From the IMG/VR virus record IMGVR_UViG_2671180349_000010: DNA of 9,481 bases; one strand, 5' to 3'. Position numbers and translations under genes: made by a program. The notes under the pieces are model-generated. The model was not told the origin of the DNA and made no database searches. It worked only from the letters and a program-made list of their open reading frames with translations. Positions 1 through 903 of this stretch are shown here, one piece after another. This DNA is from a virus (lineage: Duplodnaviria; Heunggongvirae; Uroviricota; Caudoviricetes). Position 1 is the first letter of the stretch. Each line of letters opens with the position of its first letter.

Positions 1-903
1 CCCGCCGTACACGGTGTCGTACTGGGTAGCGTATGTATTTTTCCAGTAATACGTCGTGTCACCACAAACCCACGGCACATCTGCAGCACTGCCACCATGG
101 CACTGCGCGTTAAACACGGAGAGGTCAGCACGAAACTGTGTCAGCATGGCTGTAAACAGCGCAGGTTGCTGTGCGTGGGTGGCGGCGCTCATGTCAAACT
201 CACCCTGCATCCAGCAGACGGCCAGCAGAACGTTTTTGGGATTTTTCTGCAATGCCGCTTTTGTGCGGGAAATCAGATCCTGATATAACGGCTTGCCCAC
301 CCCCCAGCGTGCCGAATCCTGACTGGCCCCCGTGGACTCGCTGAATGTCCCCTACGCGCCCTGGGTAAATGCCGAACCACCACGACAGCATGGTACCAGC
401 AGGATCCCCGCGTTATTCGGGATATACGGGAGCAGTTTTTTGGCAATATGTAAACCCTGACCGACACAGCCGTACTGCCCTTTGCTCAGGTCAGCCCTCG
501 GATGATTCAGCGTACTCATATCCTGCACATCATGCAGACAGTGGTCAGCCGGAATAATATCGTTATATCTGCAGGCAGCCCCGCCCGGCGTCACTGTACT
601 GCGGCGCGCCAGCTGTTTAATGCGCGGATCCGGAGCATCGTATGAATCCGGCAGCGGAAGCCCTTCACCGTAAGCCATGGCATTGGACTGCCCGGCCAGT
701 ACGATGACGTAGTACCAATCCGGCTCAGATGAAGGGCCGACCTGTGGCTCTCCTTCAATAGCCACCGCCTGCATCAGTGTGTACGGCGTAATGGCAACCG
801 GTCCGCCGTATGGCTGCCAGCCCTCTTTCAGTTTGTGTGTCAGCTTTTCCGCAAGGTCTGACGGCGACGCCGCCCTGACAACATCGTAATGTTTAATCGA
901 CAT
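1..903 (-). pseudogene. NanS-p-like prophage sialate O-acetylesterase (DUF1737 N-terminal region + SGNH/SASA esterase), interrupted by one in-frame TAG at 352..354; gene continues past the window start
   Basis: ORF 352..903 begins with ATG at 903 preceded by GGGAGA. Its translation contains the esterase serine motif LAGQSNAMAYGEG. Translating the same minus frame below the TAG (351..1) gives an uninterrupted esterase-like continuation (...NVLLAVCWMQGEFDMSAATHAQQPALF...) with no further stop. The listed overlapping ORFs 200..391 and 273..467 are other frames and look non-coding. Confidence 0.6.

What the first reader, a model, noticed from the sequence alone, without database searches (positions are those of the whole stretch)
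1..903. nanS-p-like esterase gene interrupted by a single in-frame amber codon
The ORF beginning at 903 has an N-terminal region typical of prophage NanS-p proteins and the GQSN catalytic serine motif, then stops at TAG (352..354). The same frame continues without any further stop through to position 1 with plausible esterase sequence (CWMQGEFD...). This is one clean nonsense codon rather than a frameshift or deletion. It may be a recent inactivating mutation, a sequencing error, or a site read through in an amber-suppressing host. The three ORF-track entries overlapping this region in other frames are artefacts of it.
Basis: seen in the sequence. Interest (0 to 1): 0.5.

Follow-up and report, generated by a model that had tools for sequence, protein, structure and literature searches.

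The report
Single-base nonsense allele of prophage nanS-p
One copy of a well-known prophage sugar-esterase gene (nanS-p) in a draft E. coli genome has been cut short by a single G-to-T change that turns a glutamate codon into a stop, which is an ordinary, lineage-restricted gene inactivation and not a new biological feature.

Summary
On the minus strand an ORF starts at ATG 903 and stops at TAG 354-352 (183 aa). The same frame stays open to position 1, where the contig ends.

The 301 codons match the intact 616-aa NanS-p protein WP_000023266.1 at every position except 184 (stop instead of Glu). Over 1,100 nt the only DNA difference from intact copies is window base 354, which changes GAG to TAG.

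The window is the whole contig CYBW01000058.1 of atypical EPEC strain 702898 (Pakistan, GEMS collection; Illumina HiSeq, Velvet). It is a phage-434-like prophage segment.

No TAG at this codon was found in 2,470 copies across 1,160 complete E. coli records, in 30 phage records, or in three large contig collections. All 18 fetched copies covering the codon read GAG.

The stop lies 5 residues after SGNH block II. The product keeps DUF1737 and the Ser73 nucleophile, but loses block III, the catalytic His and the lectin-like C-terminal domain, so it should be esterase-dead.

Independent lesions of this gene (IS insertion, indels, another nonsense codon) are common in other strains.

A real, recent loss-of-function mutation is most likely. 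Base-call error is not excluded without the reads. Interest is low.

The parts
1..903 (-). 5' part (codons 1-301 of 616) of a nanS-p sialate O-acetylesterase gene. The contig ends inside the gene.
   Evidence: Translation; Pfam DUF1737 + SASA; identical to WP_000023266.1 except at codon 184; PGAP and phage 434 annotations of the orthologue as 'SASA family carbohydrate esterase'.
352..354 (-). Premature amber codon TAG at codon 184. It is GAG (Glu) in intact copies, and the changed base is window 354 (+ strand A, relatives C).
   Evidence: Single difference in 1,100 nt; GAG in 18 of 18 loci covering the codon; no exact 61-mer match in E. coli complete genomes or phages.
355..903 (-). Coding part of the truncated product (183 aa): DUF1737, a linker, and the first ~120 residues of the SGNH/SASA domain.
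   Evidence: The exact product is in public protein collections.
757..894 (-). DUF1737 domain (residues 4-49), intact in the truncated product.
   Evidence: Pfam PF08410, E 9e-16. A phi24B preprint identifies the homologous domain of gp84 as a capsid-decorating domain.
682..693 (-). SGNH block I, GQSN (residues 71-74; nucleophile Ser73). Retained.
   Evidence: Sequence; motif positions; block definitions for NanS 3PT5 in PMC10792757.
367..384 (-). SGNH block II, RGGSAF (residues 174-179). Retained, ending 5 codons before the stop.
193..210 (-). SGNH block III, MQGEFD (residues 232-237). Encoded in frame downstream of the stop, so not translated.
911..914 (-). Ribosome-binding site GGAG of nanS-p.
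   Evidence: Sequence; annotated at the equivalent position in phage 434.
998..1016 (-). Intrinsic terminator-like hairpin with a T-run just upstream of nanS-p.
   Evidence: annotated as a terminator in phage 434.
2306..2327 (-). tR'-like terminator downstream of the late promoter region. It places nanS-p in the Q-dependent late operon.
   Evidence: phage 434 annotation.
2373..3062 (-). Antiterminator Q gene (229 aa, Q82-like). Its product should be needed for transcription to reach nanS-p.
   Evidence: Gene calls with PF06323; phage 434 annotation.

Best explanation
This is a real, recent, lineage-restricted loss-of-function allele of a prophage nanS-p gene.

In a phage-434-like prophage of atypical EPEC strain 702898 (clonal group CG121), one G-to-T transversion on the coding strand (window 354) changed Glu184 (GAG) to amber (TAG).

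The gene sits in the Q-dependent late operon, downstream of Q, the tR'-like terminator, a TfpB-like gene and a DUF3927 gene. It would be transcribed on prophage induction. Translation then ends at codon 184.

The 183-aa product keeps DUF1737, the Ser73 nucleophile (block I) and block II. It lacks SGNH block III, the catalytic His of block V and the lectin-like C-terminal domain, so it cannot work as a sialate O-acetylesterase.

What is shown: the substitution, its uniqueness, the gene's identity and the domains lost.

What is inferred: that the base is real in the reads, that the product is enzymatically dead, and that downstream lysis genes are little affected. The last point rests on the established fact that Q-modified RNA polymerase resists terminators, so polarity should be small.
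For: - There is a single nucleotide difference from intact copies over 1,100 nt, and the first 301 codons differ only at codon 184.
- The TAG 61-mer is absent from 2,470 places in 1,160 complete E. coli records and from 30 phage records. The TAG 36-mer is absent from the viral, metagenome and GTDB-representative collections.
- GAG is found in 18 of 18 loci, including paralogues 92-98% identical. Glu is found at the aligned position of NanS 3PT5.
- Prophages carrying the same Q allele have an intact 616-aa nanS-p, so TAG is the derived state.
- The contig is accurate at substitution level. An independent Logan assembly of another run (SRR15416747) is identical over window 1229-9409 except for one homopolymer base, and it reproduces all five other private substitutions.
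- Of the 6 private substitutions, 4 are synonymous, which fits real divergence.
- The exact 183-aa product has three ENA-style accessions. The look-up reports 2 samples with this contig plus 2 similar places. The collection contains 13 CG121 isolates.
- The domains lost follow from the block positions.
- Independent lesions of the same gene occur elsewhere.
Against: - Codon 184 itself was not seen in any independently retrievable DNA, because the sister contig L035 stops at window 1229.
- I could not map the three ENA-style accessions to assemblies.
- The window does carry one private homopolymer indel (about 3413-3418) that the sister assembly lacks. At least one base of the contig is therefore either an error or a very recent change.
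- Loss of enzyme activity was not measured.
Confidence: 0.82

Rival explanations
1. The T is a sequencing or assembly error in a Velvet draft built from 100-bp Illumina reads, and the strain really has GAG and an intact gene.
For: - The allele is unique in everything that could be searched.
- The genome is a short-read Velvet draft, and the contig ends 351 nt further on, inside a gene that is multicopy in many strains.
- The window has one private homopolymer indel not seen in a sister assembly.
Against: - Consensus substitution errors are rare in Illumina assemblies.
- The T is not present in any paralogue, so collapse of paralogous copies cannot have produced it.
- All other private substitutions of the contig are reproduced by an independent run and assembler.
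- The exact 183-aa product carries three ENA-style accessions and is reported in more than one sample.
- Contig breaks near codon 183 in other drafts reflect how the exact-length look-up selects. Partials of many other lengths are equally frequent.
Confidence: 0.12
2. The amber codon is read through or suppressed (host suppressor tRNA or programmed read-through), so that full-length active NanS-p is still made.
For: - The downstream frame is intact and identical to the functional allele.
- The stop is followed by G. From general knowledge, a purine after UAG favours suppression in supE/supF strains.
Against: - The TAG is not conserved in any of about 2,500 copies, so it is not a programmed recoding site.
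- There is no tRNA gene in the window.
- From general knowledge, amber suppressors are laboratory alleles and are rare in wild isolates, and basal UAG read-through in E. coli is of the order of a percent or less.
- The intact downstream frame is expected anyway for a recent mutation. Background divergence is about 0.14%, so about 0.5 changes are expected in 351 nt.
Confidence: 0.03
3. The allele separates two functions. The esterase is lost, but the intact DUF1737 domain is still made and keeps a role of its own, such as capsid decoration.
For: - DUF1737 (residues 4-49) is complete in the 183-aa product.
- A 2026 preprint assigns the DUF1737 domain of phi24B gp84 to a capsid-decorating hexamer that is proteolytically separated from the esterase domain.
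Against: - No selection for this truncation is visible, because it is private to one lineage.
- Other strains break the gene at many different places, as expected for neutral decay.
- The prophage here is 434/lambda-like, not a phi24B-type T=9 podovirus.
- A half SGNH domain is likely to misfold.
Confidence: 0.08

Closest known systems
NanS-p prophage sialate O-acetylesterases of EHEC/STEC (e.g. z1466 of phage 933W; vb_24B_21/gp84 of phi24B)
   Same: The three-part architecture begins identically (DUF1737, then a SASA/SGNH domain with GQSN). The position is the same, in the late region downstream of Q in a lambdoid prophage. The sequence is identical to the intact 616-aa WP_000023266.1 apart from codon 184 (reviews PMC8065619 and PMC10462455).
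   Different: Translation stops at codon 184, so block III, the catalytic His and the C-terminal lectin-like domain are missing. The prophage is 434-like with no stx genes in the window.
Chromosomal NanS (YjhS), PDB 3PT5
   Same: The SGNH-like esterase domain is homologous (E 1e-102 over residues 60-300), with the same blocks GQSNA, RGGSAF and MQGEFD and a Glu at the position mutated here.
   Different: NanS lacks the DUF1737 and C-terminal domains and is not prophage-borne. The allele here is truncated.
Other disrupted nanS-p alleles in E. coli genomes
   Same: The same gene is inactivated independently: IS21 insertion (NZ_CP017631), 3' deletion (NZ_CP104509), nonsense at codon 576 (NZ_CP148382), and 1-nt indels (L021, L029).
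   Different: The sites and lesion types differ. The Glu184 amber was not found in any of them.

Membership tests
NanS-p (prophage DUF1737-SASA-DUF6645 sialate O-acetylesterase) | N-terminal DUF1737 domain | tested here: met
   PF08410 at residues 4-49, E 9e-16, 57.9 bits against a cut-off of 24.
NanS-p (prophage DUF1737-SASA-DUF6645 sialate O-acetylesterase) | SASA/SGNH esterase domain with block I GQSN(A) and block II RGGSAF | tested here: met
   PF03629 at residues 66-262, E 1.6e-13; GQSNA at 71-75 and RGGSAF at 174-179; 3PT5 matches at E 1e-102.
NanS-p (prophage DUF1737-SASA-DUF6645 sialate O-acetylesterase) | Complete catalytic apparatus in one polypeptide (block III MQGEFD and the block V His) | tested here: not met
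   The stop at codon 184 precedes block III (232-237). The block V His (about residue 301 in NanS numbering) lies beyond the contig end. The gene belongs to the family by descent, but its product is not a complete member.
NanS-p (prophage DUF1737-SASA-DUF6645 sialate O-acetylesterase) | C-terminal lectin-like domain (DUF6645) | not testable with these tools
   The contig ends at codon 301. The domain is present in orthologues (PF20350 in L017, L028 and others).
NanS-p (prophage DUF1737-SASA-DUF6645 sialate O-acetylesterase) | Location in the late operon of a lambdoid prophage, between Q and the lysis genes | tested here: met
   Q, the tR'-like terminator, and the TfpB-like and DUF3927 genes lie upstream in the window. 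Holin, endolysin and spanin genes follow in phage 434 and in closed genomes.
NanS-p (prophage DUF1737-SASA-DUF6645 sialate O-acetylesterase) | Neu5,9Ac2 esterase activity | not testable with these tools
   This needs an enzyme assay. Loss of activity is predicted from the missing catalytic His.
Programmed stop-codon read-through / recoding site | The stop codon is conserved at the same position in homologues | tested here: not met
   None of 2,470 E. coli places and none of 30 phage records has the TAG. GAG is found in 18 of 18 loci.
Simple nonsense pseudogene allele | An otherwise identical intact allele exists, and the lesion is confined to one lineage | tested here: met
   One nucleotide difference in 1,100 nt; intact in prophages with the same Q allele; the TAG word was found nowhere else.

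The most novel reading that the evidence does not exclude
The amber allele is not a null. It removes the esterase but still produces the intact DUF1737 domain, which was recently reported to be a capsid-decorating module cleaved from the esterase in phi24B. The prophage would then keep a virion-associated function while losing the mucin-sugar metabolic function.
Probability: 0.08. Interest if true: 0.3.

Novelty: already known. Interest (0 to 1): 0.08.

Why it matters
It matters little in itself. One aEPEC lineage has probably lost the activity of this nanS-p copy. A close relative (FHI_NMBU_03) has only one copy of the gene, so this lineage may have lost all of its prophage-borne sialate O-acetylesterase activity. 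That is a small phenotypic note for the use of mucin-derived Neu5,9Ac2.

There is also a practical point. Public protein databases hold many 'partial' NanS-p entries of exactly this length that are contig-end artefacts, so a length match is not evidence of a shared stop allele.

Tried and rejected
1. Assembly-junction artefact. Many drafts end at nt 548-551 of the gene, right at the SNP. I rejected this as evidence because the look-up selects products of exactly this length, and the same protein cluster holds partials of 141-265 aa with similar contig counts.

2. The TfpB-like frameshift as a lineage marker or a sign of a poor assembly. The split 167 + 79 aa allele is widespread (428 index blocks, including closed chromosomes) and is often next to an intact nanS-p.

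3. The exact Q variant as a lineage marker. It is also common (147 blocks), though it did show that TAG is the derived state.

4. Ren L45F did work as a marker (9 contigs), but the one retrievable sister contig stops short of nanS-p.

5. Exact-word scans for the TAG allele in the viral, metagenome and GTDB-representative collections all gave zero hits.

6. A suppressor tRNA in the window: none found.

7. The alternative-frame ORFs over 1-903 and the 62-aa ORF at 957-1145 have no Pfam match.

Full report
**Observation.** On the minus strand an ORF begins at ATG 903-901, preceded by GGAG at 914-911. It ends at TAG 354-352, giving 183 aa. The same frame then runs without another stop to position 1, so there are 301 codons with a single stop. 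Pfam finds DUF1737 at residues 4-49 (E 9e-16) and the SASA sialate-acetylesterase domain at residues 66-262 (E 1.6e-13), the latter aligning straight across the stop. The solved NanS (YjhS) structure 3PT5 matches residues 60-300 at E 1e-102.

**What the codon normally is.** Against E. coli 2015C-4136CT1 (NZ_CP027550), the 1,100 nt covering the gene and its upstream region differ at one base only. This is window 354, T on the coding strand against G. The normal codon is therefore GAG (Glu184). The 301 window codons are otherwise identical to the intact 616-aa protein WP_000023266.1. All 18 fetched loci that cover the codon read GAG, including paralogues only 92-98% identical. NanS 3PT5 has Glu at the aligned position.

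**How widespread the TAG is.** A 61-mer centred on the TAG has no exact match among 2,470 places in 1,160 complete E. coli records. The best places all show 98.4% identity, which is one mismatch. There is also no exact match in 30 phage records. A 36-mer containing the TAG is absent from the viral-contig, metagenome-contig and GTDB-representative collections.

An exact-protein look-up of the 183-aa product did return many contigs. On inspection, all but the window's own contig simply end inside or just before codon 184 (...GCG GA or ...GC). They are contig-end partial genes and not stop alleles.

I considered whether this pile-up of contig ends at the SNP pointed to an assembly-junction artefact. 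It does not. The look-up selects for exactly this length, and the same protein cluster contains partials of 141-265 aa with comparable contig counts. Drafts break all along this often multicopy gene.

**Provenance.**
- The window is the entire contig CYBW01000058.1 of assembly GCA_001283845.1.
- PMC6267907 identifies CYBW01 as human atypical EPEC strain 702898 from Pakistan.
- The strain is in the GEMS aEPEC collection (ERS085406, case isolate, clonal group CG121, which has 13 isolates in the table).
- That collection was sequenced on Illumina HiSeq with 100-bp paired reads and assembled with Velvet.

**Context.** The window is a phage-434-like lambdoid prophage segment, 99.7% identical to phage 434 over 9,386 nt. 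On the minus strand, from the high-coordinate end, the order is O, P, ren, ninB, dam, ninE, ninF, ninG, ninI, then lpxR on the opposite strand, ylcG, Q, a TfpB-like membrane protein gene, a DUF3927 gene, and nanS-p.

A promoter-like site at the end of Q, a tR'-like terminator (2327-2306) and a second terminator (1016-998) lie upstream of nanS-p. They match the regulatory features annotated in phage 434. So nanS-p lies in the Q-dependent late operon, ahead of the holin, endolysin and spanin genes seen in relatives.

**Real mutation or error.** Relative to the closest complete genomes the window has 13 substitutions and two 1-nt indels. Among 32 other fetched loci, six substitutions are private to the window: 354, 1739, 1985, 4761, 6574 and 7515. 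Four of them are synonymous, one is Ren L45F, and one is the nonsense change. That excess of synonymous changes is what real divergence under selection looks like.

The Ren L45F protein is a tight lineage marker, found in only 9 contigs. One of them, a Logan assembly of a different run (SRR15416747), is identical to the window over 1229-9409 except for one base in an A-run at about 3413-3418. The other five private substitutions are therefore independently reproduced, and the contig is reliable at substitution level. That contig stops before nanS-p, however, so codon 184 is not directly confirmed.

Indirect support comes from three sources:
- The exact 183-aa product carries three ENA-style accessions (CTV40431.1, CTZ32496.1, CTZ95723.1).
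- The look-up reports two samples with this contig plus two similar places.
- CG121 has 13 isolates in the collection.

That these accessions represent separate isolates with a true stop codon is my inference. It rests on the fact that Prokka-style annotation does not call genes running off contig ends.

The T cannot come from collapsing paralogous copies, because no paralogue has it. I put a real mutation at about 0.82 and an error at about 0.12.

**Consequence.** The SGNH blocks of NanS are listed in PMC10792757 as block I GQSNA, block II RGGSAF, block III MQGEFD, and block V with the catalytic His near residue 301. In the NanS-p protein, blocks I to III fall at 71-75, 174-179 and 232-237. 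The stop at 184 leaves DUF1737, the Ser73 nucleophile and block II. It removes block III, the catalytic His and the C-terminal lectin-like DUF6645 domain.

From the established SGNH mechanism the fragment should have no esterase activity. This is an inference and was not measured. The next in-frame Met is M232, so any restart product would lack the nucleophile.

Because Q-modified polymerase resists termination, strong polarity on the lysis genes is not expected. This too is an inference from lambda biology.

**Direction and commonness.** Prophages with the identical Q allele carry an intact 616-aa nanS-p (L028, L030, L031, L032), so TAG is the derived state.

Independent lesions of the same gene are frequent:
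- an IS21 insertion at nt 1069 (NZ_CP017631)
- a 3' deletion (NZ_CP104509)
- a nonsense codon at 576 (NZ_CP148382)
- 1-nt indels in L021 and L029

Among loci fetched without regard to nanS-p status, 2 of the 11 with a full-length copy are broken. This allele is one more instance of ordinary prophage gene decay. The closed relative FHI_NMBU_03 has only one nanS-p place, so this lineage may have lost its only prophage copy. I could not check the copy number in strain 702898.

**Rivals.** Suppression or programmed read-through has no support. The stop is not conserved anywhere, the window encodes no tRNA, and the intact downstream frame is expected for a recent change, since about 0.5 substitutions are expected in 351 nt at the observed divergence.

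A more interesting but weakly supported reading comes from a 2026 preprint. It shows that the DUF1737 domain of the phi24B homologue gp84 is a capsid-decorating domain that is cleaved from the esterase. The 183-aa product retains that domain, so the allele might not be a complete null. Against this reading, the truncation is private to one lineage, other strains break the gene at many different sites, and this prophage is lambda/434-like rather than phi24B-like.

**Verdict.** The feature is a single-base nonsense allele (Glu184 GAG to TAG) of a well-characterised prophage gene, most likely real and recent. It has low general interest and no novelty of kind.

Noticed in passing
window 1446-2188 (-), homopolymer pair at about 1697-1712: The TfpB/STM1630-like membrane protein gene (247 aa in phage 434 and many genomes) is split here into 167 + 79 aa by a 1-nt shorter run in ...ATAAAAAACATTTTTTTGAG.... 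The split allele is widespread (428 index blocks, including closed chromosomes), so it is a common length variant at a homopolymer and not a private lesion. It could be slippage-prone or phase-variable.
   Followed up: partly
window about 3413-3418 (intergenic, between lpxR and ylcG): A 1-nt shorter A-run is private to this contig. The otherwise identical sister assembly (Logan SRR15416747, L035) and all relatives have the extra A. It is either a Velvet homopolymer error or a very recent indel. It creates the 76-aa ORF call at 3227-3457.
   Followed up: partly
L006-L014 (ends of contigs); protein cluster: Public protein collections contain many 'partial' NanS-p entries (141-265 aa) that are contig-end truncations of this multicopy gene. 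Several have exactly 183 aa and are sequence-identical to the true amber product, so exact-sequence look-ups mix real stop alleles with assembly breaks.
   Followed up: yes
window 3536-4495 (+): An LpxR lipid A 3'-O-deacylase gene sits as an opposite-strand cargo gene (moron) between the nin region and Q, as in phage 434. This is a prophage-borne outer-membrane LPS-modifying enzyme.
   Followed up: no
window about 9381-9481: Most close relatives, including phage 434, stop matching at 9380-9386. The sister contig L035 matches to 9409, and only two genomes cover the full window. This looks like a mosaic junction on the cII/immunity side of gene O.
   Followed up: no
window 880-1121 (+): In relatives, PGAP annotates a 'hypothetical protein' pseudogene (frameshifted, internal stop, partial) on the strand opposite to, and overlapping, the nanS-p start. 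The 62-aa ORF at 957-1145 (-), annotated in phage 434 as a putative membrane protein, contains the terminator hairpin and has no Pfam match.
   Followed up: partly
window 7357-7647 (-), base 7515: Ren carries a lineage-specific L45F change found in only 9 contigs of the public collection. It is a useful marker for this prophage lineage.
   Followed up: yes
L016 (NZ_CP148382), L021, L029, L002, L003: There are independent inactivations of the same nanS-p allele in other strains: nonsense at codon 576, 1-nt indels giving 455-aa and 234-aa products, an IS21 insertion at nt 1069, and a 3' deletion fused to tail genes.
   Followed up: yes
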